DNA from: Bacillota bacterium
GTDB lineage: Bacteria > Bacillota_I > Bacilli_A > RFN20 > CAG-288
Assembly (NCBI GenBank): GCA_023398335.1
Contig: JAEWSJ010000009.1
Location: 55,567 to 119,566 of the forward strand
Length of the DNA stretch: 64,000 nt
Direction of reading: 5' to 3'
Shown here: one piece after another, positions 129-61,894 of the stretch
Numbering within the stretch: the first letter of the stretch is position 1
How the letters are laid out: each line of letters opens with the position of its first letter
Program-made: the position numbers and the translations under genes
The notes under the pieces: generated by a model
The model's database searches: none
What the model was told of the DNA's origin: nothing
The model's input: only the letters and a program-made list of their open reading frames with translations

Positions 129-157
129 TTGAAACTTATGTATAATAATGGTATATT
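129..157 (+). promoter_or_regulatory. sigma-A type promoter of the mraZ operon
   Basis: TTGAAA (129-134), 17 bp spacer, TGgTATATT extended -10 (149-157). A TGTATAAT at 139-146 is an alternative extended -10. Confidence 0.5.
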
Positions 158-181
158 GTGGTTAAGAGTGGAGGAAAGTGG
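158..181 (+). promoter_or_regulatory. Putative MraZ operator: three GTGG direct repeats at exact 10 bp spacing
   Basis: GTGG at 158-161, 168-171 and 178-181, between the -10 element and the mraZ ATG. MraZ family repressors bind GTG-containing direct repeats with 10 bp periodicity. Confidence 0.5.
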
Positions 182-182
182 A

Positions 183-620
183 ATGTTTGTTGGTCAATCT
201 CAGCATACTTTAGACGATAAACTTCGTATAGTATTACCAGCAAAAATGCGTAATCAACTTTCGACTACTGTATATTTATCATTTGATTTAGACCACTGTA
301 TTGCCATATACGCGGAGAATGATTATCAAGTAAAAGCAACTGAGATGTCAAAGCTTGACGACTTTAACCCAGAAGCAAGAGCAGTTAAAAGAGTTTTCTT
401 TTCAAACTCATTTGAAACAACAGTTGATAAACAAGGCCGTATATCAATACCTAAGTTTTTATTAACGAAAGCATCAATTAACAAAGATGTTGTAATTGTT
501 GGATCATACGACCGCATACAAATTTTTTCCAGAGAAGCTTTTGAAACTGAATTAAAAGAAGATGAGACAAATTATGAAAGTCTTGCCAGTAAGGTAAATA
601 GTTTAAAGTATGGAAAGTAA
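183..620 (+). CDS. mraZ: Transcriptional regulator MraZ
   Basis: Protein starts MFVGQSQHTLDDKLRIVLPAKMR, the typical MraZ N-terminus. ATG at 183 follows RBS GGAGGAAAG. The track ORF starts from a TTG at 129 and is over-extended. Confidence 0.85.
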   Translation: MFVGQSQHTLDDKLRIVLPAKMRNQLSTTVYLSFDLDHCIAIYAENDYQVKATEMSKLDDFNPEARAVKRVFFSNSFETTVDKQGRISIPKFLLTKASINKDVVIVGSYDRIQIFSREAFETELKEDETNYESLASKVNSLKYGK

Positions 621-1551
621 TTACCACAATCCTGTACTATTGAATGAAGTTCTAGCAGGACTAGATATTAAAGAGAATTCAATATGCGTCGATATGACAT
701 TAGGAAGAGGAGGTCACTCTTCTGAAATGCTAAAAATATGTAAAAAAGGTCATTTATACGCTGTTGATAAAGATTTAACCGCACTTGATTATTCAAAAAA
801 CAGATTATCAGCCATTGGAAATAACTTCAGTTTATTTCAAGGTGACTACTCATCCTTCCCAGATGTACTAAAAGAGAACGGTGTTGTTAGAGCAGATGCA
901 ATTCTTTATGACATTGGTGTTTCCTCACCACAGTTTGATAATCCAGAACGTGGGTTCTCATATAGATTTGATGCTCCTCTAGATATGAGAATGAATATGG
1001 AGCAAAAAAAAGATGCTTACTTTGTCGTAAATACCTATACATTTGAAGAGTTAAGAAGAATTATCTCAGAGTATGGGGAAGACAAAAATGCTAGTAGGAT
1101 AGCTAAATCAATTGTTGAAAGAAGAGTAAAAAGACCTATTAGTTCAACGTTTGATTTAGTTGATGTAATCAAATCCTGTTTACCAAGTTTTGTACTAAAT
1201 AAACAAGGACATCCTGCAAAGCAAACCTTCCAAGCTATAAGATACGAAGTTAACAACGAGAAAGAAGAGTTGGTCAACGGTCTTAGAAAAGGCATTGAGA
1301 TGCTAAGCGTGAATGGAAGACTTGCTATTATAACCTTTAACTCAGCCGAAGATAAAGCAGTTAAAGATATGTTTAAGGAATATACATCTATTCCTTCTCA
1401 AAACAGGCACTTACCTCCTGTCTTAGGCCAAAACAAACCTAAGTATATACTTGTAAATAGGAAACCAATTTCTCCATCAGATGAAGAAATTGAAGATAAT
1501 CCACGTTGCAAGCCAAGTAAGTTAAGAATTATAGAAAGGATCAGTGAGTAA
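610..1551 (+). CDS. rsmH: 16S rRNA (cytosine1402-N4)-methyltransferase RsmH (MraW)
   Basis: SAM-MTase motifs (DMTLGRGGHS, DIGVSSPQFD). Overlaps mraZ as in dcw clusters. Confidence 0.9.
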   Translation: MESNYHNPVLLNEVLAGLDIKENSICVDMTLGRGGHSSEMLKICKKGHLYAVDKDLTALDYSKNRLSAIGNNFSLFQGDYSSFPDVLKENGVVRADAILYDIGVSSPQFDNPERGFSYRFDAPLDMRMNMEQKKDAYFVVNTYTFEELRRIISEYGEDKNASRIAKSIVERRVKRPISSTFDLVDVIKSCLPSFVLNKQGHPAKQTFQAIRYEVNNEKEELVNGLRKGIEMLSVNGRLAIITFNSAEDKAVKDMFKEYTSIPSQNRHLPPVLGQNKPKYILVNRKPISPSDEEIEDNPRCKPSKLRIIERISE

Positions 1552-1875: not shown

Positions 1876-3786
1876 TTATTTTTGTACTCTGTAGAATTGT
1901 TTTGTATCAATATCATGACGTATTAATTTAATAAAATCGTCTAATGATACGGTAACTTGTTCTTGAGTACCAAGAATACGATAAGTAACTGTGTTGTTAT
2001 CTTTTTCTTTATCTCCTATAACAAGAGTGTAAGGAACTTTTTTAACTTGACAGTCACGAATCTTATAACCAACTTTTTCTCCTCTATCATCAACTTCAGA
2101 TCTGATTCTAGCGTTGAGAAGAGCTTCATTAACTTTATTTGCATAATCGAGGTGGAAGTTGTTATTTACTGGAAGAATAACGACTTGTTTAGGACTTAAC
2201 CATGTTGGAAATGCACCTTTAAAGTGTTCTGTAATAATACCGGTAAATCTTTCAATAGAGCCGAATATTGCTCTGTGAATCATTAATGGGGTGACTTTGT
2301 CGCCATTTTGATCAATATATGTGCAATCAAAGCGGCTAGGAAGTTGCATATCTAATTGAATTGTTCCACATTGCCAAATTCTATTTAATGAATCTCTTAA
2401 TTTAAAGTCAAGTTTTGGCCCATAAAAAGCACCATCACCTGGATTAATCTTATAATCAATATTGAAATCTTTTAAGCATTTTTCCAATATCTCTTCAGCT
2501 TTATTCCATGTTTCAATTTTTCCGATAAAACTATCAGGTCTAGTTGATAAAACAATGTAATATGGTAAATTAAATGTTTTATAGATACGATCATATAAAC
2601 TTAATAAGTGTCTAATTTCAGATTCGATTTGATCTTCTCTTAATAATGTATGAGCATCATCTTGAGTAAAGCATCTAACTCTAAACAATCCGTTTAACGC
2701 TCCAGAAGCTTCGTGACGATGGACAAGACCTAATTCGCCTATACGAATAGGTAATTCTTTATATGAGTGAATATCATTCTTATAGACTAATATTGCGCCT
2801 GGGCAATTCATTGGTTTAATTGCAAATGTGTTTTCATCAACTTGAGTTGTGTACATATTTTCTTTGTAATGATCCCAGTGACCTGAGGTTTCCCATAATT
2901 CCTTAGATAGCATTATTGGAGTTCTAACAAAAATATAGTTTTCTTTTGCGTGAATATCGTACCAGAAGTTCTCTAATTCTCTTCTAAGAATCATGCCATT
3001 TGGTAACCAAAATGGAAATCCAGGACCATAATCAGAAATCATGAATAAACCTAATTCTTTACCAAGCTTACGGTGATCACTTTCTTTTCTTTCTTCAAGA
3101 AGCTTTAAGTATGCATCAAGATCTTCCTTAGAGAAGAAACAAGTGCCATAAACTCTTGTTAATTGTTCGTTGTTTTTATCGCCTTTAAAATATGCTCCAG
3201 CAATGGACATAAGCTTAAATGCTTTACAAAGAGCGGTAGAAGCGACATGAGGTCCTCGACAAAGATCAGTGAAATCTCCTTGTGAATAAACTGTTATAGT
3301 TCCTTTTAATTCTTCTAAGTGAATAAGTTTGAATTTTTGATCCTTAAAAATCTTTTTTCCTTCTTCTACAGATATTTCTTTTCTTTCGATTGGAAGTCCG
3401 GATTTTACAATTTTATCCATTTCCTTTTCGATTGCTTTAAAATCATTTTCGGAAATAGGAGTGTTTGTTTTAACATCATAGTAATATCCTTCTTCAACGG
3501 ATGGACCATATGCAAATTGAGCTTCAGGGAAAATATGCTTAATTGCTTGGGCCATGATATGTGCACAAGAATGATTTAATATATCAAGAGCTTCTTTTGA
3601 TTCTTTTGTAACAATTTCAAATTTACAATCTTCCGAAATAGGTAATCTGAAATCTTGAATCTCGTCATTGATTTTAACAGCGATTACTTTCTTCGGAAGT
3701 GAAACAGAGATTCTTGCTGCAATCTCTAAACCCGTCAGTCCATCTTCAACTTCTAAAACTTTACCATCTAATAGTGTTAGTTTCAT
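1876..3786 (-). CDS. thrS: Threonyl-tRNA synthetase
   Basis: 636 aa with TGS, editing and class II core domains. Sequence is diagnostic of ThrRS. Confidence 0.95.
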   Translation of the reverse strand: MKLTLLDGKVLEVEDGLTGLEIAARISVSLPKKVIAVKINDEIQDFRLPISEDCKFEIVTKESKEALDILNHSCAHIMAQAIKHIFPEAQFAYGPSVEEGYYYDVKTNTPISENDFKAIEKEMDKIVKSGLPIERKEISVEEGKKIFKDQKFKLIHLEELKGTITVYSQGDFTDLCRGPHVASTALCKAFKLMSIAGAYFKGDKNNEQLTRVYGTCFFSKEDLDAYLKLLEERKESDHRKLGKELGLFMISDYGPGFPFWLPNGMILRRELENFWYDIHAKENYIFVRTPIMLSKELWETSGHWDHYKENMYTTQVDENTFAIKPMNCPGAILVYKNDIHSYKELPIRIGELGLVHRHEASGALNGLFRVRCFTQDDAHTLLREDQIESEIRHLLSLYDRIYKTFNLPYYIVLSTRPDSFIGKIETWNKAEEILEKCLKDFNIDYKINPGDGAFYGPKLDFKLRDSLNRIWQCGTIQLDMQLPSRFDCTYIDQNGDKVTPLMIHRAIFGSIERFTGIITEHFKGAFPTWLSPKQVVILPVNNNFHLDYANKVNEALLNARIRSEVDDRGEKVGYKIRDCQVKKVPYTLVIGDKEKDNNTVTYRILGTQEQVTVSLDDFIKLIRHDIDTKQFYRVQK

Positions 3787-8418: not shown

Positions 8419-9678
8419 ATGCTAATGTTTGAAGAAGACAGTATTTATGAAGTAAGAGCGGATTTTGATTTATCTTGCTATGATAGAGAATTTTTAGCCA
8501 GATGTTACTTACCTTTTTTAGGTGGGAATGCTTTTGCTTTATATGAATATATGCTTTCATGTGATAAAGGGCAATACTACTTTGTTGATGATCTATGTAA
8601 GAGAATCGGAATACTTTCTTCTTCATTGATTTCTGAGCGACAAAAATTAGAAGCTTGTGGTTTGTTATCAACTTATCGTAATGAGACAAAAGATAAAATA
8701 TCTTATATTTTTATCTTGTTTGCTCCTTTATACCCAAATAAATTCTTCAATAATATTCTTTTATCTAGTTTACTTATTTCAAAAATAGGAAAAAGAGAAT
8801 TTGATAAATTAATTAATAAGTATACATCTAATTCAAAAATGGATAGTGCATTTAAAAATGTAACTATGAGATTTAATGATGTTTATGATGTTGAACCGGA
8901 TATGAACTACTATGAGACAATGAATGGAGAATCACGTGTTTTATTTGACAAACATGAAAATGAAATAAAGAGTGATTTTTCTGAAAAGAAACTTGTAGAT
9001 GAATTATCTAATATTGATGTTGATGTTAATTCTATTTCCACATATTTACCTGATATTAAACAGGTTTCTGTACTTTATAATGTTAAAGAAAAAACTTGTG
9101 CTAATCTTATTAAGTCAAGTTTAAACACAAATAATGTTTTTAATTTTGAGGCGTTTAAAGAAAACGCGTCTTTAGCTACAAAATATGGAGTTAAAGATAT
9201 TGACAATTCATTCGTTGATATTGATGAAACTTTCAATATTGGAAATTCTATGCTTGCTAAAAAAATTAAATTGTTGGAAAGTATATCTCCGAAAGAATTA
9301 TTATCTCATTCTTTAAACGACGTAGTATTACCAAAATCATATCTAGATTTAATATATAATCTTCAGAATGACTATAAGATTAATAATGGTGTATTAAATG
9401 TTGCCATTGATTACACTTTACAAAAATGCAATTTTCAATTACCTGAGATGTATATACGTAAAGTCATAATTTCGTTAGTTAAAAACAACATTAATACTTC
9501 ATCTGATGCAATGACTTATTTGGTACAGCAATCAAATAAGGTGATTAATAAGAAGAAGAGAAGCAAGTTGAATAAAGTTGAAGCAATAGTAGAGAATAAA
9601 AACGAAGTAAAGAATGATAATAATGACGATGATTTTGATTTAGAATCAGTTTTAGGAGGAGTATTTAGTGGAAAATAA
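8419..9678 (+). CDS. dnaB: Replication initiation and membrane attachment protein, B. subtilis DnaB-type (DnaD-like domains)
   Basis: N-terminus aligns to Bsu DnaB: YLPFLGGNAFALYEYML versus YQPLIGPVAHSLYMTL; ERQKLEACGLLSTY...YIFILFAPLYPNKFF versus ERLKLEGIGLLRTY...LFIYELLPPLRPDEFF. Followed by dnaI as in Bsu. Confidence 0.7.
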   Translation: MLMFEEDSIYEVRADFDLSCYDREFLARCYLPFLGGNAFALYEYMLSCDKGQYYFVDDLCKRIGILSSSLISERQKLEACGLLSTYRNETKDKISYIFILFAPLYPNKFFNNILLSSLLISKIGKREFDKLINKYTSNSKMDSAFKNVTMRFNDVYDVEPDMNYYETMNGESRVLFDKHENEIKSDFSEKKLVDELSNIDVDVNSISTYLPDIKQVSVLYNVKEKTCANLIKSSLNTNNVFNFEAFKENASLATKYGVKDIDNSFVDIDETFNIGNSMLAKKIKLLESISPKELLSHSLNDVVLPKSYLDLIYNLQNDYKINNGVLNVAIDYTLQKCNFQLPEMYIRKVIISLVKNNINTSSDAMTYLVQQSNKVINKKKRSKLNKVEAIVENKNEVKNDNNDDDFDLESVLGGVFSGK

Positions 9679-10600
9679 TATATTGAAAAATGTTCTTACT
9701 AAAGAAGAAGTAGAGAATAAAGATGTTGAAATTGAATCTAGAATTAAGAACAACGAACGTCTACAAGAAATTCTTCTGAAATTTGATGTTAGTGATGATA
9801 TAGTTAAAAAATCTTACGCACCTATATTGCGTTATTTAGACGATCAAAAGCAGTGTAATAATTGTCTTGGCTATGATAAATGTACAAAATGTAATAAAAA
9901 GGGATATCGAATCGCATTAAAATACGATCCTTTTATTGGCTATATTGATGATGCATATATAAAATGCGATTATTATAAACAAATTTGCAAATTATATGAC
10001 CGATTTATCATTTCTGATATTGACGTTGTAAAATGCAAAGATACTTTTTCTAAAACTTACGAGTATTTATTTAAGACTAAATCTTCAGTTAGGAATAGTT
10101 TTATTTCTGTAGCAAAAAGCGTGATGAAAAAATCTGTAACAAAATACTCTCCGAAAGAAATGAACTGCGGAGCGTATATTTATTCTGATAATGATAATGG
10201 TAATTTCCTTCTTTCATTAATTGCTTTTACACACGCTAAAGCTCAAAGAGATATTGTTTATTTAGAAGCAAGTAGAACCTTGACTGATGCATCTTCTTTT
10301 AATAAGGAAATTAAAGAAGAAGCGGATTCCAAAATAGAAAGAGCGAAAAACGCACCTGTTCTTGTTATTTCAAATCTTGGATTTGAATATAAATCATCTT
10401 CCGCTCGAGATATTATTTTGACACCTTTATTATCTTCAAGAGCAAAAAAAGGATTGGTTACTTATATTTCATCTCGTGTATGCTTAAATGATTTAATTTA
10501 TTCCTATGCTAAAGATGCTGTTAGTAAAAAATTCTTAGAATCATCCTTCAATAAAATTGTTGAAGAATATCACATTGAAGATATCGAATTATTTAATTAA
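9668..10600 (+). CDS. dnaI: DnaI-like helicase loader with degenerate Walker A/B (predicted ATPase-dead)
   Basis: GTG start with a GGAGG RBS. N-terminal Cys cluster (CNNCLGYDKC..C) resembles the DnaI zinc domain. The P-loop position reads YIYSDNDNGNFLL versus Bsu YLYGKFGVGKTFLL. There is no GKT/GKS anywhere in the protein. Walker B DD is replaced by SN. Confidence 0.6.
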   Translation: MENNILKNVLTKEEVENKDVEIESRIKNNERLQEILLKFDVSDDIVKKSYAPILRYLDDQKQCNNCLGYDKCTKCNKKGYRIALKYDPFIGYIDDAYIKCDYYKQICKLYDRFIISDIDVVKCKDTFSKTYEYLFKTKSSVRNSFISVAKSVMKKSVTKYSPKEMNCGAYIYSDNDNGNFLLSLIAFTHAKAQRDIVYLEASRTLTDASSFNKEIKEEADSKIERAKNAPVLVISNLGFEYKSSSARDIILTPLLSSRAKKGLVTYISSRVCLNDLIYSYAKDAVSKKFLESSFNKIVEEYHIEDIELFN

Positions 10601-10659
10601 TTATTATTTCATATAAAAATTTTCCTTATATTTACTAAATGATGTGAGGAGATTTTTTT

Positions 10660-11823
10660 ATGTTAAAACAAAAAGAACAAAGCAATTGTGGCGAGGTAGC
10701 AGTAAGAAATATAATTCATTATTTTTATAAGACAAGAGATTCCTATTTTTATAGTCTCAAAAATGATTGCAGCAATTTTTATTTGATGAAGGATTCTTTA
10801 TATGAATATGGAATTATATCAAATGGATATTCATTTACATCTTTAAAATCTCTTTGTAAAGTAAAAACTCCGTTTATTTGTTTAATAAACAGAGATGGAG
10901 AGAAACACTTTATTATTGTGAGAAAGAAAGTTTCGAATTATTTCTTAGTAAACGATTTGAACTATGGTTGGCGATTAATTAGTCTTCATAAATTTAAAGA
11001 AATATCCGAGAACAAAATACTAGTATTTGAAAATTATGAGAAAAAAAAGATTAAGAAAATAAGTCTCATTAGTAATAAATATTTACTCGCGTTAAACTTT
11101 GTTATTTTAATGGAATCGCTTTGTTTATTTTATTCTTTTGCTATTATGAACGATTCAAAATATAGTTTAATTAATTCATTAAGTTTAATAGCTGTTTTTT
11201 TATTAGCGTTTATGCATAAATCACTGTTAATTAGCGTTTCAAAACAATTTGATAAAAGTGTATCCCTAAAGTATTTTCAAGCAGTAAATAGTACAAAAGA
11301 TTATGTATTACTAAATAATTTCAAAACAAAATTTATCACTGAAATAAACGGGAAAATAAGTTCAGTATACACTTTAATATTAGCTTTGTTGGTAGCCTTT
11401 TTTTCCAGTATAGAAATGCTAGCTTTTTTACTTGTATCGTTTATTATATTTATCATATATGAATATTTATTTAGTAAATATTTGAATAAGATGGAATATA
11501 AAATTTATGAAAAAGAACAGATGTTTTTAAACAGCAATCAAATAGATGAAAATTCCTTTAATTCTTCATCGCAAATTGCTTCGAAATATGGGTTGTTAAT
11601 TGAATTAAAGAAAATACTCGTATTAATTTCTATCTTTGTATGTAGCATTTTCTATTCATATCAATCATTGAATATTTCTTATTGTATATTTTTAACTTTG
11701 TTCATTAATTATGTTGTTTCAACTTGCTATTCAAATTTTGCTTATTTCAGTGTTAATAGCAGCTATTTTAACGAAATTCTTAAGTTGGATGGTATAATTT
11801 ATGATATTATTCAAAAAGGGTGA
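10660..11823 (+). CDS. Peptidase C39-like domain fused to a 6-TM domain (ABC-exporter-like, but no NBD)
   Basis: N-terminus has Q-x5-C (QKEQSNCGEVAV), HFIIV and a downstream D/N, all typical of C39. About 6 TM helices follow. The protein ends at 387 aa with no ATPase domain, and no ABC NBD gene is adjacent. Confidence 0.5.
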   Translation: MLKQKEQSNCGEVAVRNIIHYFYKTRDSYFYSLKNDCSNFYLMKDSLYEYGIISNGYSFTSLKSLCKVKTPFICLINRDGEKHFIIVRKKVSNYFLVNDLNYGWRLISLHKFKEISENKILVFENYEKKKIKKISLISNKYLLALNFVILMESLCLFYSFAIMNDSKYSLINSLSLIAVFLLAFMHKSLLISVSKQFDKSVSLKYFQAVNSTKDYVLLNNFKTKFITEINGKISSVYTLILALLVAFFSSIEMLAFLLVSFIIFIIYEYLFSKYLNKMEYKIYEKEQMFLNSNQIDENSFNSSSQIASKYGLLIELKKILVLISIFVCSIFYSYQSLNISYCIFLTLFINYVVSTCYSNFAYFSVNSSYFNEILKLDGIIYDIIQKG

Positions 11824-15892: not shown

Positions 15893-17818
15893 ATGATGCT
15901 AGATCAAAGTTTGATTGACAGTATTAGATCAAAAGCTGATATTGTTCAAGTTATTTCCTCCTATTTAGATGTTGAAAAAAAAGGCAGTAATTACCTAGCT
16001 ATTTGTCCTTTTCATCATGACACATCTCCATCGTTAACTATATCACCTACTAAACAGATTTTTACGTGCTTTGTTTGTCATACAACAGGTAATGCTTTTT
16101 CTTTTGTCATGAAATATGAACATATTGGCTTTATTGATGCGGTTAAAAAAGTTTGTTCAATTTGTGGAATAGATGTCCCTGAACTTAATAACTATAAAGT
16201 CATTAAGAGAATAAGAGAAAATGAAGAAGAACATAAAGCTTTAGAACAATTGTCAGATTACTATGCTTACATGCTTGATACTCAAGATGGAATTGAAGCT
16301 AAAAATTATTTAATTTCCCGTCAATTGCAAAATGATGTTATTAAACACTTTAAAATAGGCTATGCACCTCTAAATAATGAAGAATCCGTTAATATGTTGA
16401 GGAATAAATTGAATATTCCGCTTGAAGTATTGGATAGAGCAGGAATTACTTCCTCTTCAACCTCAACATTTAAGGATCGCTATAGAGATCGTATTATTTT
16501 TACTTTGGAAGATTTGCATGGTGATGTGGTTGGTTTCTCTGGTAGAAAATATAAAGACAATGAAGCTAACGAAGCAAAATATATTAATTCACCTGAAACC
16601 GTTCTATTTAAGAAGAGTCAATTATTGTATAATCTAAAAAACTCGATGGAATCATGTAAAAAAGATGGCTATATATATTTACTTGAAGGTTTCATGGATG
16701 TCATTGCTTTGTATCGAGCTGAAATTACATCCGCTGTAGGTCTAATGGGCACTTCTTTATCAAAGGAACATGTTGCTCTATTCAAGAAATTAAATGTTGA
16801 AATTAGATTATGTCTTGATTCTGATGGTCCAGGTCAAGCAGCTACAGAAAAATGTATTGCTGCATTATATGAAGAAAGAGTTAATTTTAAAGTAATAAAA
16901 CCTTTATATAATGGAAAAGATCCGGATGAATTGCTAGATTCAGAGGGTAAAGAAGCTCTTGTTGCTGCTATGAATGAGATTGAAGAACCGATTATTCATT
17001 CATTAAACTATAATATAAAAGCTAAATTACTAAATACATATGAAGATAAGGAAAAGTTTTTAGTTGCTAATAAAAATTATTTCTACAATATCAATACTTT
17101 AGCATTAAATGAGGTACTTGATACATTATCATTAGCTTTGAATGTTTCAGTTGACTCCATAAAAAATGTATATCGTTCTTTACGAAATAAATCTGACATT
17201 AAATCCGTACAATATGGAGACAATAAACCAGATAGAAGATATGAGTATACTTATATTGATTCATCCGTTGATATATATAAAGCACTTACAGATTACATTT
17301 TAAACATTACTGATAATGTTAGATTAAAATCAATTAATTCAAAACCAATTGTAATAAATGAATCGAGAATTATAGCTCGTATGGTCATGTCGAGAAAAAT
17401 GTGCAATGACTTTTTAAAGACTGAATCATTTGTTATTAGTCAATATAATTTGCTAGTTAGATATTTTAACGATTACTACTTGCGTAATAGTGTAGAATGT
17501 TTATGTGTGGAAAAATTGGGAGATATTGAAGACTCAGTTGAAAACACTTATGGAGAATTGATTGAGACTAATCAAAAATTTTCTAAAGACAAAGATGAGA
17601 TTTTAGGCATTATTTTACGGTTAAAGGTTTGTCATATCCCTTGTAAAACTAATATGTCTGATAGTTCTATCAGCAATCTCATTGACACTCATAAAGATTT
17701 ATGTCTAAAATTTGATATTTCAAACAAAAGTTTGGATGATAAATCTAAGGAAGAATTGATTTCTAAGTTGCAAAAAAATTACTCAAAAAAATTAGAAGGG
17801 AAGAAGAATAATGGCTAA
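15893..17818 (+). CDS. dnaG: DNA primase
   Basis: Zinc finger [10 protein letters not shown]...CFVCH, TOPRIM domain (EGFMD). Confidence 0.9.
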
Positions 17819-19013
17819 AGTAGAAAAAATTGAGATTAAAGTTGAGACAGAATGGAAAGATTTGTTATTAAAAAAAGGGACAAAAAAGGGATTTTTATCT
17901 CAAGATGATATTTACGCCATTATGGAACCTTTCGATATATCAGATGACCAATTGGACGAATTAATTAATTATGTTAAAGAATCTGGAATTGAAATTAAAA
18001 ATGATGTTGAAGAGGATGAACCTATTATTGATGATAGTTTAACACCTGAAGACTTACTTAAAAATGATGATGATATACTTGAAGATGATAATTTTGAAAT
18101 TGAAGTTGAAGAAGAGTCTATTCCTGAAATTCATGATTTAGAATTTTCAATTGATAATGTTGATATTAAGAATAATGACCCAGTTAAACAATATTTACGT
18201 GAAATTGGTAAATATCGTGTCTTAAAAGGAAAAGATGAAGAGATTGAAATTGCTCGTCGAATTGCTGAGGGTGATGAATCAGCTAAAGAAGAACTTACAA
18301 ATTGCAATTTAAAATTAGTTATTTCTATCGCTAAACACTATGTCAATAGAGGAATGCAATTCTTGGATTTAATTCAAGAAGGTAATTTAGGATTGATGAA
18401 AGCTGTCGAAAAGTTCGATTATACAAAAGGCTATAAATTTTCAACATATGCTACATGGTGGATTAGACAAGCCATCACTAGAGCTTTAGCTGATCAAGCT
18501 CGTACAATACGTATTCCTGTCCATATGGTTGAAACAATAAATAAAATTACTCGTGCTTCACGTAAATTAACACAAAAGTTAAATCGTGATCCTACACCTG
18601 AAGAAATTTCTAAAGAACTTGATGGCGCATACTCTGCTGAGAGAATTAGAGAAATTCAACTGATTGCCATGGATCCTTTATCATTAGAGAAACCTGTTGG
18701 TGAAGAAGAAGATTCACATGTTGGTGATTTCATCGAAGATAAAGATAATGAATCACCATTAAAATATGCTAATTCTTCTTTATTAAAAGATAAATTAAAT
18801 GATGTTTTAGGTGAATTAACAGATCGTGAAGAAAGAGTCATTCGTTTACGTTATGGCCTTGATGATGGAAGAAACCACACTCTTGAAGAAGTTGGCAAAG
18901 AATTTGGTGTTACTCGTGAACGTATTCGTCAAATTGAAGCCAAAGCAATTAAGAAATTACGTCATCCAACACGTTCAAAACAATTGAGAGATTATTTAGA
19001 CGATATAAATTAA
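17811..19013 (+). CDS. sigA: RNA polymerase principal sigma factor
   Basis: Regions 1.1 to 4.2 present. [14 protein letters not shown] (2.4) and [21 protein letters not shown] (4.2). The dnaG-sigA order matches Bsu. Confidence 0.9.
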
Positions 19014-19092: not shown

Positions 19093-20121
19093 ATGAGTAA
19101 AGACATTAACAAATCCTTAATTAATGATTATGTTAGTAGTATTGATTCTTCAAAAATTGCCAAGTCTAAAATGATAAGCGATTTCATTGATGAGCAAAAT
19201 TTGAATGAAGATGAGATTGATTATCTTTTTCGTGCTTTAAAAGATAAAAACATTCGACTTTCTGAGATTGATTTTAATAGCCCTAGTACTTCAAGTAAAA
19301 AAATATATTCTACGTCTGACTCGTTAAATATGTATTTGCAAGAGATTGGTCGCTATCCTTTATTAACATTTGAAGATGAAAAAAAATTATCGAAACTAAT
19401 CCATGAAGGCGATACCGAAGCTTATGATGAATTGGTCAATAGCAACCTAAGACTTGTTGCATCAATAGCTAAAGAATACAAAGGCAAGAGCACTTTATCA
19501 TATCAAGATTTAATTCAAGAGGGTAATTTAGGGCTTTTACGTGCTGCTCAAAAATACGATTATACAAGAGGCTTTAAGTTTTCAACTTACGCCGTATGCT
19601 GGATAAGACAATCTATTTCACGTGCAATAGCCTCAAAAGGGCACGCTATTGCCTTGCCAGTATATATTCAAGAATCATTAAATAAAATTAAAGGTATATC
19701 TAGTAAATTAGTTTTAAGATACGATAGAGATCCTACCCCAAAAGAAATAGCTGATGAGTCAAGAGATGAATTTACTGAAGACAAAGTTAGAAAACTTTTA
19801 TCATATGATAATTCGGTTGTTTCTTTGGACAAACCAGTTAATGAAAATGATTCAGGAGTTTCATTAGCTAATTTTTTATCAAATGATGATAATAGCCTAT
19901 TAATTGATAATCAAATAGAAGATATTAGATATGCCATTAATAAACTATCCGAACGAGAACGCAGCTTAATTATTAAACGTTATGGTTTATATGATAATAG
20001 TCCTCACACTTTGGAAACTTTAGGAGAAGAAGAAGGCGTAACACGTGAACGTGCACGTCAGCTTGTAAATCGCGCTCTAAAAAAGATGGCAGAATATTTA
20101 AAAGATGGCAGTAATAAGTAA
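19093..20121 (+). CDS. Sigma-70 family sigma factor, SigA paralog (group 2-like)
   Basis: 342 aa with regions 1.2 to 4.2: YLQEIGRYPLLTFEDE, TYAVCWIRQSISRA, GVTRERARQLVNRALKKM. Has its own terminator/promoter context after sigA. Confidence 0.8.
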   Translation: MSKDINKSLINDYVSSIDSSKIAKSKMISDFIDEQNLNEDEIDYLFRALKDKNIRLSEIDFNSPSTSSKKIYSTSDSLNMYLQEIGRYPLLTFEDEKKLSKLIHEGDTEAYDELVNSNLRLVASIAKEYKGKSTLSYQDLIQEGNLGLLRAAQKYDYTRGFKFSTYAVCWIRQSISRAIASKGHAIALPVYIQESLNKIKGISSKLVLRYDRDPTPKEIADESRDEFTEDKVRKLLSYDNSVVSLDKPVNENDSGVSLANFLSNDDNSLLIDNQIEDIRYAINKLSERERSLIIKRYGLYDNSPHTLETLGEEEGVTRERARQLVNRALKKMAEYLKDGSNK

Positions 20122-41924: not shown

Positions 41925-42977
41925 TTATTTATACAATTTAGAGAATGTAGTATCTTTTAGAGCTGAGAATCCAGTTAATGCTGCTTCAGCAAAGAATTCA
42001 TTGATTGAAAATTGCTTAGAATTAAATGCAAGTCCATTAACGTCTAATACAGTAGTTAAGGTCTCTTTATCTACTCCATAGGTTGTACTGGCTTTATAGG
42101 TATTATTTTCTTCTGCTTTATTTATTAAGCTTAAGATACCCTGCCCTTTATTATTTTCTAAATCATTTAAACTTTCATCAAAATTAGCTAAGAAATTATC
42201 TCGACTTGATATTAAATCCTTTTCTGTAGCATTTTCGAGACGATTGGAAATAAATAATCCAGCTTGTGGAAATCCATCAAAGCCATTCCCAGAATTCATA
42301 TTGTTTGTTTTCGAATATTTTTGCCACTCTTTTGTTATATTATATTTAATTGATAATGAATTATTAGCCGCTAACGCCTTGGTAACGTATGGTTCGGAAA
42401 GAATAACATAATTTACTGTTTTCCCTTCTAATACCTTAGTTTCAGCAACGCTTTCAGCTAAAGCAACACCAGCTAAAGACGAATCTATTTTCACATTGTA
42501 CATTTTTTCAAATAGCGAATTAAATATAGATGGGGACCCAAATGAAACAATATTATCTTCTTCATCCAACGTTGAATTTGTGTCATTTCCTAAGTCAATG
42601 AGATAAGCATTACCTTTTGTAACAACCCGAGCTAATTTATATGAGGAGTTTTTCTTTTCGATAAATGTTTGCCCTTTTGTTATATCAAATATAATGGCAT
42701 CATATTCTGTGCCTGAAACAAAAGCCGCTGGAATAATCGTTGCAGGATTCGAAGCAATTGTGCAATTATCGTGATCTTCAACAAAAGGAGCTAATGCAAC
42801 AGAAGGGGCACCAATCGGTGACAAAACCTTAAAATCTAGTTTCTTAGTACTTAATGCACTATTACAACTAGTAAGTAAAAGTGGCACCATTAATAAAGTA
42901 ATATATTTTTTTTGCATAATTATTTCTCCTATGTTTATTATATAGCTATAACATTTATTTTCTAATGATATGCTCAT
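41925..42977 (-). CDS. Lipoprotein, putative solute-binding protein (paralog A)
   Basis: Signal peptide plus lipobox LLLTSC. Paralogous to the next gene (shared GLFISNRLENA, KLARVT/V.GNAY). Confidence 0.5.
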   Translation of the reverse strand: MSISLENKCYSYIINIGEIIMQKKYITLLMVPLLLTSCNSALSTKKLDFKVLSPIGAPSVALAPFVEDHDNCTIASNPATIIPAAFVSGTEYDAIIFDITKGQTFIEKKNSSYKLARVVTKGNAYLIDLGNDTNSTLDEEDNIVSFGSPSIFNSLFEKMYNVKIDSSLAGVALAESVAETKVLEGKTVNYVILSEPYVTKALAANNSLSIKYNITKEWQKYSKTNNMNSGNGFDGFPQAGLFISNRLENATEKDLISSRDNFLANFDESLNDLENNKGQGILSLINKAEENNTYKASTTYGVDKETLTTVLDVNGLAFNSKQFSINEFFAEAALTGFSALKDTTFSKLYK

Positions 42978-44009
42978 CTATTTATAGAATGAAGAATAAA
43001 CAGATGGAGCGATTGAATCAACAAAAACATTTAATCTACGTAAATTATTTACTCTTGCAAAACTATCAAGATCAAGCGTATAAGAGCAAAATCCTAAAGC
43101 ATTCACGCCGTTCGGATTTTTATTTCCGTTTAAACAATCACAAATATCGCCATATTCCGCTCCGAAATAATCAATTAAGTCAATTTTCTTATCATCATAA
43201 TAATTCTTAATAATTGATGAAGTAGCATTACCGTTGCTTTGTGATAAATCTGATAGATTCTTATCAATCGAGATTAAAAAATTCTCTCTAGCGTCCTTTA
43301 AAGGGCCTTCTTTAGCATTTTCTAATCTATTAGAAATAAATAAACCGATTGAAGGAACACGAGCATAATCAGTTTCAACGCTACAAAATGTTGAGACAAG
43401 ATTTTGAAATAGATGATAATTTCCATTTTTATCATTTAATAAACGCGAAACATATGGTTCATTTAATATGGCATAATCACCTTCTCCGGAAATGAAATGA
43501 TTATAAGTATCTTTAACATCATCATAAAAAGTGTCTATCGCATTATTATTTATAGCATTATTCTTTATAAATAAAGAGTTTTGAATACCCATAGATGTAT
43601 ATGTATGAGTGTCATAGCGACTATAAGCATAATCATATGAAATGACATTATCAAATGATGAGATAGCTTCTCCATCTGCTACCTCACCTCTCTTTATGAC
43701 ATAAGCATTTCCACATCCTGTGACACGAGCTAGTTTAAATGGGACATTTTTATTTTGTATTAACTCAATTCCTTTAGCTAAATCATATAATATGAAATCA
43801 TATTCTGAAGTGAAAAAAGCATCGTATACTAGAGAAGAAGTAACAAAAGCACAATTATCCGTATCATCTGCATATGAAAGAAAAGGATAGGAATCCCCTC
43901 CTTTAAATGTAATTATTTTAAAAGTCAAACCTTTTTGTATCCAAGAACATGAGGATATAAGTAATGAACTAGATAAAACTAAGGTTAATAATGCTTTTGT
44001 TTTTTTCAT
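42978..44009 (-). CDS. Lipoprotein, putative solute-binding protein (paralog B)
   Basis: Lipobox LLISSCSW. Tandem duplicate of 41925-42977. Confidence 0.5.
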   Translation of the reverse strand: MKKTKALLTLVLSSSLLISSCSWIQKGLTFKIITFKGGDSYPFLSYADDTDNCAFVTSSLVYDAFFTSEYDFILYDLAKGIELIQNKNVPFKLARVTGCGNAYVIKRGEVADGEAISSFDNVISYDYAYSRYDTHTYTSMGIQNSLFIKNNAINNNAIDTFYDDVKDTYNHFISGEGDYAILNEPYVSRLLNDKNGNYHLFQNLVSTFCSVETDYARVPSIGLFISNRLENAKEGPLKDARENFLISIDKNLSDLSQSNGNATSSIIKNYYDDKKIDLIDYFGAEYGDICDCLNGNKNPNGVNALGFCSYTLDLDSFARVNNLRRLNVFVDSIAPSVYSSFYK

Positions 44010-58870: not shown

Positions 58871-58912
58871 AAAAAAACTTGCAAGTACACAATCTTGCAA
58901 GTTATTTTTTAG
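58871..58912. terminator. Second hairpin, serving as terminator of the minus-strand membrane-protein gene
   Basis: acttgcaag/cttgcaagt 9 bp stem with a flanking A-run and T-run. Confidence 0.55.
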
Positions 58913-59651
58913 TTTTTAAATCTTTTATCAATAATTCGTATTGTTCCGCAGATATTTTGTGTTCTTGAAATAGTCTTTCATATTCTGTTAATTTATCTAC
59001 ATTGCCAGTGCTTTCTGTTTGAGCATTGACGACTTCCCTTGTTGGAGAATAAATCCCCATATCAGTAATATTTAAGTTTTTCTTCTTTTTATTATTCATA
59101 GCCTTTTTAACAAGTTCTGTCTTAGATATCATTGTTGTATAATCCAAATTTTTTTCTTGCCACATTTGCTCAGCCATAACATTACTTGAAACTAATTGAG
59201 CAACATTTTGAGAAGTTCTAACTCCTGGTTTTGCAATTCGATAATACGTAAGTTTTTGCGCATCTAGTTCACTTACTGGATAGAGTTTATGTTTTTTGAT
59301 TTTTTTCTTCAATAAATAATTATCAATTGTGACCGATAAAAACACATGAATTAAAAATATCGCAAAAATACCAATATATATCGGATATTCGTTAAAGCCA
59401 CTTCTGAAATAGAATAAAATATTATGCACTATTGTTTGAGCATTTGTATCCATTGGTATTTTATATAGCAGTTCTTGAATAGCTTCCATTCCTGGAATTG
59501 GTAAACAATAATAGTAAATAACAAGTAGAAACAAACTGTAATACTGAAGTCTAACTAATAGATAAAGTGGACCAAAAAAGAAATACAAAAAAGAAAAACC
59601 AACTCTTTTACTTTTCTTGTTTAATGCAATATCCTGTAGATCAACTTTCAT
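58902..59651 (-). CDS. Membrane protein with C-terminal SHOCT-like domain
   Basis: Start at the MKVDLQD Met, preceded by an AAAGGA RBS. The track ORF is over-extended into an upstream terminator. Two or three TM helices. C-terminus KLTEYERLFQEHKISAEQYELLIKDLK is SHOCT-like. Confidence 0.5.
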   Translation of the reverse strand: MKVDLQDIALNKKSKRVGFSFLYFFFGPLYLLVRLQYYSLFLLVIYYYCLPIPGMEAIQELLYKIPMDTNAQTIVHNILFYFRSGFNEYPIYIGIFAIFLIHVFLSVTIDNYLLKKKIKKHKLYPVSELDAQKLTYYRIAKPGVRTSQNVAQLVSSNVMAEQMWQEKNLDYTTMISKTELVKKAMNNKKKKNLNITDMGIYSPTREVVNAQTESTGNVDKLTEYERLFQEHKISAEQYELLIKDLKTKK

Positions 59652-59720
59652 TTGTATGTCCTTTTTTCTTGTTAATAATGTTATATCATATTTCTTTATA
59701 TAATTTAACATATAAAGATA

Positions 59721-59760
59721 CAAAAAGCATACTTTTGTATTATCTAACAAAAGTATGCTA
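59721..59760 (-). terminator. Terminator after the LRR-lipoprotein gene
   Basis: Perfect 13 bp inverted repeat agcatacttttgt/acaaaagtatgct, followed by a U-run on the minus strand. Confidence 0.65.
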
Positions 59761-61877: not shown

Positions 61878-61894
61878 CTTAATCCTCCTCCTCA

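What the first reader, a model, noticed from the sequence alone, without database searches (positions are those of the whole stretch)
9668..10600. DnaI-like helicase loader with obliterated P-loop (Walker A K/T lost, Walker B DD lost)
The protein has the DnaI length and a DnaI-like N-terminal Cys cluster, and it sits downstream of a Bsu-DnaB-type gene. These features identify it as the DnaI ortholog. The P-loop position reads YIYSDNDNGNFLL instead of YLYGKFGVGKTFLL, and no GKT or GKS occurs anywhere in the protein. The Walker B position reads VISNLGFE. An ATPase-dead helicase loader implies a non-canonical loading mechanism or a pseudo-ATPase adaptor.
Basis: partly seen in the sequence, partly recalled or inferred. 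Interest (0 to 1): 0.65.

Follow-up and report, generated by a model that had tools for sequence, protein, structure and literature searches.

The report
ATPase-dead DnaI helicase-loader homolog
This gene is the positional counterpart of the helicase loader DnaI, but it and its relatives in a lineage of uncultured Bacilli have lost every residue needed to bind or split ATP, so these bacteria probably load their replicative helicase without a loader ATPase.

Summary
ORF 9668-10600 (+) encodes a 310-aa DnaI homolog: NCBIfam DnaI E=3e-16, profile-profile E=1.4e-39 over 281 columns, AlphaFold pLDDT 92.5, best solved-structure matches all DnaI.

At the aligned motif positions:
- The Walker A Lys/Thr are gone and the loop is one residue shorter.
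- The Walker B DD is replaced by S-N.
- The sensor I Asn is lost.
- There is no Arg after residue 270, so there is no arginine finger or sensor II.

This is not an error. No GK[ST] occurs in any frame, and two independent assemblies give the same motifs.

It is not a one-off. All 20 nearest representative homologs (25-37% identity) share a conserved replacement motif, N.G.Y[IV].S.N.NG and hhhh.[NG]hG.E. A second, more degenerate group does too. All of the related loci I examined keep the same gene order, dnaB-dnaI-C39-ybeY-cdd-era-recO-glyS-dnaG. A relative with intact Walker motifs (P0021) occupies the same slot, so this is a true DnaI ortholog.

The zinc-cysteine helicase-binding domain and the hydrophobic patch that binds the DnaB tail in B. 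subtilis are retained.

The best reading is an ATP-independent loader or adaptor. A second intact loader elsewhere in the genome could not be excluded. I found no published description. I rate it a new variant of a known kind.

The parts
8419..9678 (+). dnaB-type co-loader gene (B. subtilis DnaB / DnaD-like family, 419 aa). It lies immediately upstream and overlaps the dnaI-like gene by 11 nt.
   Evidence: NCBIfam NF053829/NF052657 'replicative helicase loading/DNA remodeling protein DnaB', E about 1e-31; Pfam DnaB_2. The same gene precedes the dnaI-like gene in L003-L011.
9634..9657 (+). Conserved C-terminal tail motif of the DnaB-type protein (FDLESVLG, residues 406-413), after a charged linker. 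It is a candidate DnaI-binding tail.
   Evidence: The motif [FL]x[LIVW][DE][ES][IV][LV]G is conserved at the C-terminus of six orthologs. In B. subtilis the DnaB C-terminal tail binds the DnaI C-terminal domain (PMC13326638). Equivalence of the two tails is inferred.
9654..9670 (+). Shine-Dalgarno AGGAGGAG (9654-9661) and GTG start codon (9668-9670) of the dnaI-like gene, inside the 3' end of dnaB. This arrangement suggests translational coupling.
   Evidence: Sequence read. The N-terminus ME.. is conserved in all 20 clade members.
9668..10600 (+). dnaI-like ORF, 310 aa: a DnaI homolog without ATPase motifs.
9854..9967 (+). N-terminal zinc-cluster region (C63, C66, C72, C75 ... C100) of the helicase-interaction domain.
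   Evidence: C63, C66, C72 and C100 are invariant in the clade, in the second group, and in 93-96% of canonical homologs. They align with B. subtilis C67, C70, C76 and C101. B. subtilis zinc ligands are C67, C70, H84 and C101 (PMC2673437). H84 is R81 here, so a four-cysteine site is inferred.
10058..10138 (+). Linker and first helices of the C-terminal domain. Hydrophobic positions Y131, L134, F145 and V157 correspond to the B. subtilis DnaI patch that binds the DnaB tail.
   Evidence: The alignment to 4m4w_J puts these opposite F131, V134, F145 and L152. Those residues form the DnaB-tail interface in B. subtilis (PMC13326638). F145 is nearly invariant in the clade.
10163..10210 (+). Former Walker A (residues 166-181, NCGAYIYSDNDNGNFL). 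The Gly-rich loop is replaced, the Lys/Thr are lost, and the loop is one residue shorter.
   Evidence: In the model, strand 168-173 is followed by a 3-residue loop and then a helix from 177. It is the fourth most conserved 12-residue window in the clade.
10358..10396 (+). Former Walker B (residues 231-243, VLVISNLGFEYKS). DD is replaced by S-N, while the following G238 and E240 are kept.
   Evidence: G238 and E240 are invariant in the clade.
10460..10477 (+). Former sensor I strand (TYISSR, residues 265-270). T265 and S269 are kept, and the sensor I Asn is replaced by R270 (Y/L/F in relatives).
   Evidence: The sensor I residue in S. aureus DnaI is N260 (PMC4887207).
10478..10597 (+). C-terminal helices (residues 271-310) with no arginine at all: the arginine finger and sensor II are absent.
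   Evidence: The last Arg in the protein is R270. The canonical profile has R..ER and NRR here. S. aureus DnaI uses R288 and R304.

Best explanation
The ORF is the positional ortholog of the Firmicute helicase loader DnaI. It has become a pseudo-ATPase that keeps the DnaI architecture but cannot bind or hydrolyse ATP.

**Shown**
- The protein has a zinc-cysteine N-terminal domain plus a DnaC/DnaI-type AAA+ fold.
- Every nucleotide-handling residue is lost: Walker A Lys/Thr, Walker B DD, sensor I Asn, arginine finger and sensor II.
- This state, with its own conserved replacement motifs, is fixed in a deep lineage of uncultured Bacilli at a conserved chromosomal position next to dnaB.

**Inferred mechanism**
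- The N-terminal zinc domain still binds the replicative helicase.
- The AAA+-shaped C-terminal domain serves as a rigid docking platform for the C-terminal tail of the DnaB co-loader, and possibly for ssDNA.
- DnaA, DnaD and DnaB therefore recruit a DnaI:helicase complex to the origin as in B. subtilis.
- Ring opening or assembly and release of the loader occur without an ATP switch in the loader.
- Release would be driven by the helicase's own nucleotide cycle, by DNA binding or by primase. This is how a DnaC Walker A mutant, the isolated DnaC helicase-binding domain, lambda P and DciA work.
For: **Homology and fold.** (E=1e-42 against a profile of 57 canonical homologs; pLDDT 92.5; top PDB matches are DnaI, followed by IstB, DnaC and DnaA; hhalign E=1.4e-39).

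**Motif loss at aligned positions.**

**Not an error.**

**Selection**
- All 20 nearest representatives (E 1e-50 to 1e-17, 25-37% identity) share N.G.Y[IV].S.N.NG and hhhh.[NG]hG.E.
- The four most conserved 12-residue windows are the former sensor I strand, the former Walker B strand, the Zn cluster and the former Walker A.
- The gene carries only 1 nucleotide difference in 933 between strains.

**Orthology.** The same gene order appears in L003, L007, L008, L009 and L010. The Walker-intact relative P0021 in L011 occupies the same slot.

**Retained interfaces**
- Cys cluster.
- Hydrophobic patch equivalent to B. subtilis F131, V134, F145 and L152.
- Conserved DnaB tail.

**Mechanistic plausibility from experiments on canonical loaders**
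- E. coli DnaC K112R loads DnaB at essentially wild-type efficiency in vitro.
- The isolated helicase-binding domain of DnaC loads at about half the wild-type efficiency.
- Mutants that cannot bind ATP are less harmful than mutants that bind but cannot hydrolyse it (10.1101/2020.10.21.345918).
- C. difficile loader Walker mutants still bind the helicase and release it in active form (PMC5204125).
Against: - Only 64 kb of the genome is available, so a second intact DnaI/DnaC/IstB-type or DciA-type loader elsewhere cannot be excluded.
- No experiment bears on this protein.
- The helicase gene is not in the window, so co-adaptation of the helicase could not be examined.
- High conservation of the former motif strands partly reflects that they are core beta-strands of the fold.
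- The equivalence of the DnaB-tail interface rests on one pairwise alignment and on a B. subtilis study.
- The Pfam DnaI_N hit is below the family cut-off (16.6 vs 24.1 bits).
Confidence: 0.6

Rival explanations
1. The genome carries a second, ATP-competent helicase loader elsewhere: a DnaI/DnaC paralog, or a DciA- or phage-type loader. In that case this protein is an accessory adaptor or regulator, for example a bridge between DnaB and the helicase or an inhibitor of loading, rather than the loader itself.
For: Only 64 kb was inspected. AAA+ assemblies often combine active subunits with degenerate ones; this point is from established knowledge of clamp loaders and ORC, not a test made here.
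Against: - No second DnaI/DnaC-like ORF lies in the window.
- The gene occupies exactly the slot that an intact DnaI occupies in a related genome, so it is the ortholog and not an extra copy.
- The full-length architecture, including the helicase-binding zinc domain, is retained.
- At least one relative sits on a 1.18-Mb contig. This hints at small genomes, where redundancy is less likely; that last step is inference.
Confidence: 0.2
2. The protein has left replication altogether. The DnaI scaffold has been re-used for another task, and the link with dnaB is historical.
For: All family members are annotated only as hypothetical proteins. A conserved Asn-rich replacement loop could be a new binding site.
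Against: - The overlap and translational coupling with dnaB are kept.
- The dnaB-dnaI pair is conserved across lineages whose DnaI-like proteins have diverged to 25% identity.
- The helicase-binding Cys cluster and the DnaB-tail patch are conserved.
- dnaG lies in the same conserved gene block.
Confidence: 0.1
3. The protein still binds or hydrolyses a nucleotide through non-canonical residues in the remodelled pocket.
For: G178, G238, E240, T265 and S269 around the old pocket are retained, and the replacement loop is conserved.
Against: - The Lys is deleted and the loop is shortened to three residues between strand and helix.
- The first Walker B Asp is replaced by a hydrophobic residue in most members.
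- There is no sensor I Asn and no Arg at all in the last 40 residues.
- The second group has lost even G238 and E240.
Confidence: 0.05
4. The ORF is a decaying pseudogene or an assembly or frameshift artefact.
For: None beyond the missing motifs.
Against: - The reading frame is intact and has a strong ribosome-binding site.
- The motifs are identical in three independent assemblies.
- No alternative frame restores a P-loop.
- The predicted fold has high confidence.
- The replacement motifs and synteny are conserved over deep divergence.
Confidence: 0.02

Closest known systems
DnaI, the AAA+ helicase loader of Bacillus subtilis, Staphylococcus aureus and Geobacillus (PDB 4M4W, 2W58, 5HE8, 2QGZ; NCBIfam NF006505)
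   Same: - Same length (about 310 aa) and the same two-domain plan: a Cys-rich zinc N-terminal helicase-binding domain and a DnaC/DnaI-type AAA+ fold.
- It sits directly after a dnaB-type co-loader gene.
- The conserved GxE, R258, T265 and S269 positions are shared with canonical homologs.
- It occupies the same syntenic slot as an intact DnaI.
   Different: - The Walker A Lys/Thr, Walker B DD, sensor I Asn, arginine finger and sensor II are all absent.
- It scores 59.5 bits against a 228-bit equivalog cut-off.
- The zinc ligand His84 of B. subtilis is Arg here, so a four-cysteine site is likely.
E. coli DnaC Walker A mutant (K112R) and the isolated DnaC helicase-binding domain
   Same: They are functional analogies for a loader that cannot use ATP. 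Both still load DnaB on ssDNA in vitro and stimulate unwinding (10.1101/2020.10.21.345918).
   Different: Those are laboratory constructs of a protein whose ATPase is needed in vivo. DnaC also has a different, non-zinc N-terminal domain. Here the ATP-free state is natural and fixed by evolution.
ATP-independent helicase loaders DciA and phage lambda P
   Same: They load a DnaB-family helicase without any loader ATPase (papers listed). The proposed mode of action here is of this kind.
   Different: They are unrelated in sequence and fold. This protein is an AAA+-fold DnaI descendant.
Degenerate AAA+ subunits of other loaders (clamp-loader delta and delta', some ORC subunits)
   Same: The AAA+ fold is kept as a scaffold while the nucleotide-binding residues are lost. 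This point is from my own knowledge and was not tested here.
   Different: Those subunits work inside hetero-oligomers with active ATPase partners. No active partner is evident here.
IstB transposition helper and phage DnaC-like proteins
   Same: They belong to the same AAA+ clade and appear as weaker structural matches.
   Different: The context here is a housekeeping chromosomal block, not a mobile element. Those proteins lack the DnaI zinc N-terminal domain.

Membership tests
DnaI (Firmicute AAA+ helicase loader) | Significant full-length sequence homology to DnaI | tested here: met
   - NF006505 E=3.1e-16 over residues 4-281.
- Profile of 57 canonical homologs E=1e-42.
- hhalign probability 100, E=1.4e-39, 281 columns.
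- However, 59.5 bits is far below the 228-bit equivalog cut-off.
DnaI (Firmicute AAA+ helicase loader) | N-terminal zinc-binding helicase-interaction domain | tested here: inconclusive
   - Pfam DnaI_N scores 16.6 bits, below the 24.1-bit cut-off.
- Four Cys align with B. subtilis C67, C70, C76 and C101 and are invariant.
- The full-length Foldseek match to 4m4w DnaI covers 286 columns.
- The B. subtilis ligand H84 is R81 here.
- Metal binding is not testable with these tools.
DnaI (Firmicute AAA+ helicase loader) | DnaC/DnaI-type AAA+ fold in the C-terminal domain | tested here: met
   AlphaFold2 pLDDT 92.5. Foldseek matches 2w58, 2qgz and 5he8 at E 1e-8 to 1e-6, target TM-score 0.72-0.81, followed by IstB, DnaC and DnaA.
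DnaI (Firmicute AAA+ helicase loader) | Walker A GxxGxGK[ST] | tested here: not met
   The aligned segment is SDNDNG-N. The Lys column is a deletion in all 20 clade members. No GK[ST] occurs in any frame.
DnaI (Firmicute AAA+ helicase loader) | Walker B hhhhDD | tested here: not met
   The aligned segment is VLVISN. The first Asp is invariant in the 57 canonical homologs and is I/L/F/S in the clade.
DnaI (Firmicute AAA+ helicase loader) | Sensor I Asn, arginine finger (box VII) and sensor II Arg | tested here: not met
   The sensor I position is R270 (Y/L/F in relatives). The arginine-finger column is F/L/A. There is no Arg after residue 270. Reference residues are N260, R288 and R304 in S. 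aureus DnaI.
DnaI (Firmicute AAA+ helicase loader) | Genomic pairing with the dnaB-type co-loader, and orthologous position | tested here: met
   - The 11-nt overlap with dnaB.
- The same pair in L003-L010.
- Walker-intact P0021 in the same slot.
DnaI (Firmicute AAA+ helicase loader) | Binds and loads the replicative helicase; ssDNA-stimulated ATPase | not testable with these tools
   This needs biochemistry. The helicase gene is not in the window.
DciA / lambda P type ATP-independent loaders | DUF721/KH-like fold (DciA) or lambda P fold | tested here: not met
   The fold is AAA+ of the DnaI type. The resemblance is only in the proposed ATP-independent mode of action.

The most novel reading that the evidence does not exclude
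In a deep, genome-reduced lineage of uncultured Bacilli, chromosomal helicase loading runs with no loader ATPase at all. The AAA+ loader DnaI has been converted by evolution into a pure scaffold between DnaB and the helicase. Loss appears graded among relatives:
- the arginine finger is lost in Walker-intact neighbours;
- Lys is changed to Arg in others;
- the loss is total here;
- even the GxE motif is lost in a second group.

This would be a natural demonstration that the ATP switch of DnaC/DnaI-type loaders is dispensable for life. It would also point to which surfaces of the AAA+ domain carry the indispensable function.
Probability: 0.45. Interest if true: 0.75.

Novelty: new variant of a known kind. 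Interest (0 to 1): 0.62.

Why it matters
What ATP binding and hydrolysis by DnaC/DnaI-type loaders actually contribute has been debated since the 'ATP/ADP switch' model. In-vitro work shows that loading can proceed without it, yet model organisms need it.

This lineage has kept a full-length DnaI next to its co-loader DnaB while deleting the whole nucleotide site. That gives three things:
- a natural separation-of-function variant;
- a map of what must be conserved when ATP is not used: the zinc domain, the DnaB-tail patch, GxE and R258;
- a set of sequences, now annotated only as hypothetical proteins, that annotation pipelines miss as replication genes.

It also warns against inferring 'ATP-dependent helicase loading' from the mere presence of a dnaI homolog in genome-reduced Bacilli.

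Tried and rejected
**Hypotheses rejected**
- Frameshift or sequencing error. No P-loop occurs in any of the six frames, and two independent assemblies carry the same motifs.
- Pseudogene. Rejected on conservation, synteny and model confidence.
- Prophage or mobile-element origin. The surrounding genes are housekeeping. The viral structure library gave only ordinary DnaC-like matches, no closer than the PDB DnaI structures.
- A second loader in the window. There is none. Only Era, a YqeH-type GTPase, a RecN-like protein and an ABC ATPase carry P-loops.

**Searches that led nowhere**
- The word-indexed protein search found only the protein itself and, with the clade profile, one relative.
- The exhaustive HMMER search was needed to find the family.
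- The genome-collection scan failed with the 20-sequence alignment. With five sequences it returned only 4 loci, none of them the window's own genome.
- The afdb50 fold library was unavailable.
- Rfam found nothing in the window.
- Literature searches for a described ATPase-less DnaI, or for the LAHS01 assembly, found nothing.

**Limits**
- Taxonomy could not be refined beyond the record label 'Bacilli bacterium'.
- I considered mapping the ssDNA-contacting residues of E. coli DnaC (K143, F146, Y179) onto the conserved EYKS segment. I could not establish the register, so I make no claim.
Full report
**1. The observation**

ORF 9668-10600 (+) encodes 310 aa. It starts at a GTG preceded by AGGAGGAG, six bases upstream. 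It overlaps the stop of the upstream 419-aa gene by 11 nt.

The upstream protein matches the NCBIfam models for the B. subtilis-type co-loader DnaB (E about 1e-31) and Pfam DnaB_2.

The protein has no GK[ST]. No such motif exists in any of the six frames of 9601-10660.

**2. Is it DnaI?**

Sequence evidence:
- NCBIfam NF006505 (primosomal protein DnaI) aligns to residues 4-281 with E=3e-16. The 59.5-bit score is far below the 228-bit equivalog cut-off.
- phmmer against PDB sequences finds only DnaI: 2qgz, 4m4w, 2w58 and 5he8.
- A profile I built from 57 homologs with intact Walker A motifs hits this ORF at E=1e-42, and nothing else in the window.
- hhalign of the 20-member clade alignment against 33 canonical homologs gives probability 100, E=1.4e-39 over 281 columns.

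Fold evidence:
- AlphaFold2 with the clade alignment gives mean pLDDT 92.5.
- Foldseek against the PDB ranks DnaI structures first (E 6e-9 to 5e-6), followed by IstB, DnaC and DnaA.

**3. The motifs**

In all alignments the register is the same.

| Canonical DnaI motif | Window protein | Clade (20 members) |
|---|---|---|
| Walker A, GLYLYGKFGVGKTF | GAYIYSDNDNG-NF | Lys column (invariant in 57 canonical homologs) is a deletion in all 20; first two Gly become Ser and a variable residue |
| Walker B, VLMLDDIGAE | VLVISNLGFE | invariant first Asp becomes I/L/F/S; second becomes N/G |
| Sensor I Asn (N260 in S. aureus DnaI) | R270 | Y/L/F |
| Arginine finger (R288 in S. aureus DnaI) | not Arg | L/A/F |
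| Sensor II (R304 in S. aureus DnaI) | none; no Arg after residue 270 | no conserved Arg |

In the model, strand 168-173 is joined to the helix starting at 177 by only three residues. The phosphate-binding loop therefore no longer exists as such.

Some positions conserved in canonical homologs are retained: G238 and E240 (20/20), R258 (18/20), T265 (19/20) and S269 (19/20).

**4. Not an artefact, not a relic**

Two independent assemblies (SRR13442943, ERR13111410) match the window at 99.65% DNA identity without gaps. Their proteins differ from the window's only at I115V. The gene has one nucleotide difference in 933.

An exhaustive HMMER scan of 1.84 billion representative proteins found 318 relatives. 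The 20 best (E 1e-50 to 7e-18, 25-37% identity) all lack the Walker Lys. They share a replacement consensus: N.G.Y[IV].S.N.NG, and hhhh.[NG]hG.E.

The four most conserved 12-residue windows in this clade are 258-269, 229-240, 63-74 and 167-178. These are the old sensor I strand, the old Walker B strand, the zinc cluster and the old Walker A. The old active-site elements are thus conserved in a new form. Part of that conservation reflects that they are core strands of the fold.

A second group of about 14 representatives (about 320 aa) is more degenerate still and has lost G238 and E240. It clusters with the clade in a neighbour-joining tree. That tree is rough and its branches are long.

**5. 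Orthology by position**

The gene order is pyk-pfk-cmpB on one strand, then dnaB, dnaI-like, a C39 peptidase membrane protein, ybeY, cdd, era, recO, glyS, dnaG and sigA on the other. This order occurs in:
- the window;
- a 'Bacilli bacterium' MAG, L003, 36% identity;
- two different contigs of the assembly GCA_000987605.1, L007 (about 25% identity) and L008 (about 35% identity);
- two members of the second group, L009 and L010.

P0021 is one of the nearest homologs that still has GKS and DD. It sits in the same slot: pfk | dnaB-dnaI-yqfD-C39-...-ybeY-cdd-era-recO. The window's gene is therefore the ortholog of an intact dnaI, and the ATPase site was lost within this lineage.

The Walker-intact neighbours P0021, P0024 and P0027 already lack the R..ER arginine-finger pattern of more distant canonical homologs. 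Fourteen other representatives have Lys changed to Arg with Walker B intact. Together these hint at stepwise relaxation. That is an inference from a sample biased toward sequences resembling the query.

**6. What is kept**

- C63, C66, C72 and C100 are invariant in the clade and the second group, and present in 93-96% of canonical homologs. They align with B. subtilis C67, C70, C76 and C101.
- In B. subtilis the zinc ligands are C67, C70, H84 and C101, and zinc binding is required for helicase binding (PMC2673437). H84 is R81 here, so a four-cysteine site using C72 is likely. This is inferred.
- In B. subtilis the C-terminal tail of DnaB binds DnaI residues F131, V134, F145 and L152 (PMC13326638). 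By the alignment these correspond to Y131, L134, F145 (nearly invariant in the clade) and V157.
- The DnaB-type proteins of six orthologous loci end in a conserved [FL]x[LIVW][DE][ES][IV][LV]G motif after a charged linker.

**7. Mechanism**

The best-supported reading is an ATP-independent DnaI. The zinc domain holds the helicase. The AAA+-shaped domain is a docking module for the DnaB tail and perhaps for ssDNA. Release does not need loader ATP hydrolysis because no ATP-locked oligomer forms.

Experiments on canonical loaders make this plausible:
- E. coli DnaC K112R loads DnaB at about wild-type efficiency.
- The isolated helicase-binding domain of DnaC loads at about half the wild-type efficiency and activates unwinding.
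- Mutants that bind ATP but cannot hydrolyse it are worse than mutants that cannot bind it.
- C. difficile loader Walker mutants still bind the helicase and release it in active form.

Fold, motif loss, conservation and orthology are shown here. Helicase binding, DnaB-tail binding and ATP-free loading are inferred.

**8. Rivals**

- The main rival is that another intact loader lies elsewhere in the genome. The window has none, but the rest of the genome is not available.
- Re-use of the scaffold outside replication is possible but fits the conserved dnaB coupling poorly.
- Residual non-canonical nucleotide binding is unlikely given points 3 and 6.
- The pseudogene or artefact reading is unlikely given point 4.

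**9. Comparison with what is known**

Evolutionarily this is a DnaI. It fails the defining ATPase features of the DnaI family, so I do not file it as a functional member. It is a new variant: a natural pseudo-ATPase DnaI.

Functionally it should resemble ATP-independent loaders (DciA, lambda P) and the engineered ATP-blind DnaC.

The family members whose source names I looked up are called 'hypothetical protein', for example MCI2068859.1 from a 'Bacilli bacterium' MAG. Four full-text literature searches found no description of a DnaI lacking its ATPase motifs. Absence from that library is not proof of absence.

**10. The organism**

The window has about 30% G+C and uses the standard genetic code; TGA serves as a stop in 5 of 50 ORFs. 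It carries housekeeping genes typical of Bacilli. Relatives are labelled only 'Bacilli bacterium', or are mis-binned. One relative lies on a 1.18-Mb contig.

**11. Verdict**

- Novelty: a new variant of a known kind.
- Interest: 0.62.

Noticed in passing
window 10660-11823 (+): The gene directly downstream of the dnaI-like gene encodes a C39 peptidase domain plus a membrane region (387 aa). It matches only the first 239 of 673 positions of a peptidase-ABC-transporter model. It has no nucleotide-binding domain, and no such gene lies next to it. It keeps this position in most of the related loci examined (L003, L007, L008, L010), and lies a gene or two further downstream in L009 and L011.
   Followed up: partly
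proteins P0043, P0051, P0055, P0070, P0078, P0084, P0086, P0095, P0103, P0104, P0117, P0126, P0127, P0140; loci L009, L010: A second group of DnaI-like proteins of about 310-330 aa is even more degenerate, having also lost the GxE after Walker B. The two members I looked up (P0070 and P0084, in L009 and L010) lie in the same dnaB-dnaI-C39-ybeY-era slot. In L009, yabP and yqfD (sporulation genes) lie between dnaI and the C39 gene.
   Followed up: partly
proteins P0056, P0061, P0063, P0074, P0094, P0100, P0102, P0112, P0123, P0133, P0143 and others: Among the 146 nearest full-length DnaI-like representatives, 54 lack the Walker A lysine. Fourteen have Lys changed to Arg with Walker B intact, and a few have Lys changed to Ala or Val. 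The Walker-intact neighbours P0021, P0024 and P0027 lack the R..ER arginine-finger pattern. This suggests repeated or stepwise relaxation of the loader ATPase. The sample is biased toward sequences resembling the query.
   Followed up: partly
window 17811-19013 and 19093-20121 (+): Two sigma-70 family genes lie side by side after dnaG: a full-length SigA-like protein (400 aa, regions 1.1-4) and a 342-aa paralog. The same pair is seen in L007.
   Followed up: no
window 129-1551 (+), then 1876-3786 (-): mraZ and rsmH are not followed by any fts, pbp or mur division and cell-wall genes. The next gene is thrS on the other strand. This may indicate a reduced or wall-less lineage.
   Followed up: no
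window 41925-42977, 42978-44009 and 58902-59750 (all -): Three ORFs of 350, 343 and 282 aa have no Pfam match at E<=1e-5. A 706-aa BspA-type leucine-rich-repeat protein lies next to the third, at 59775-61895.
   Followed up: no
L007 and L008 (GCA_000987605.1, contigs LAHS01000081 and LAHS01000719): One NCBI assembly holds two different members of the clade (P0018 and P0005), each in the full syntenic block. The record is therefore a mixture of at least two related organisms rather than one genome.
   Followed up: partly
L005, L006: Two contigs carrying clade members are filed under Phocaeicola dorei and an uncultured Prevotella. Their dnaB/dnaI-like genes belong to the Bacilli clade, so they are probably mis-binned.
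   Followed up: no
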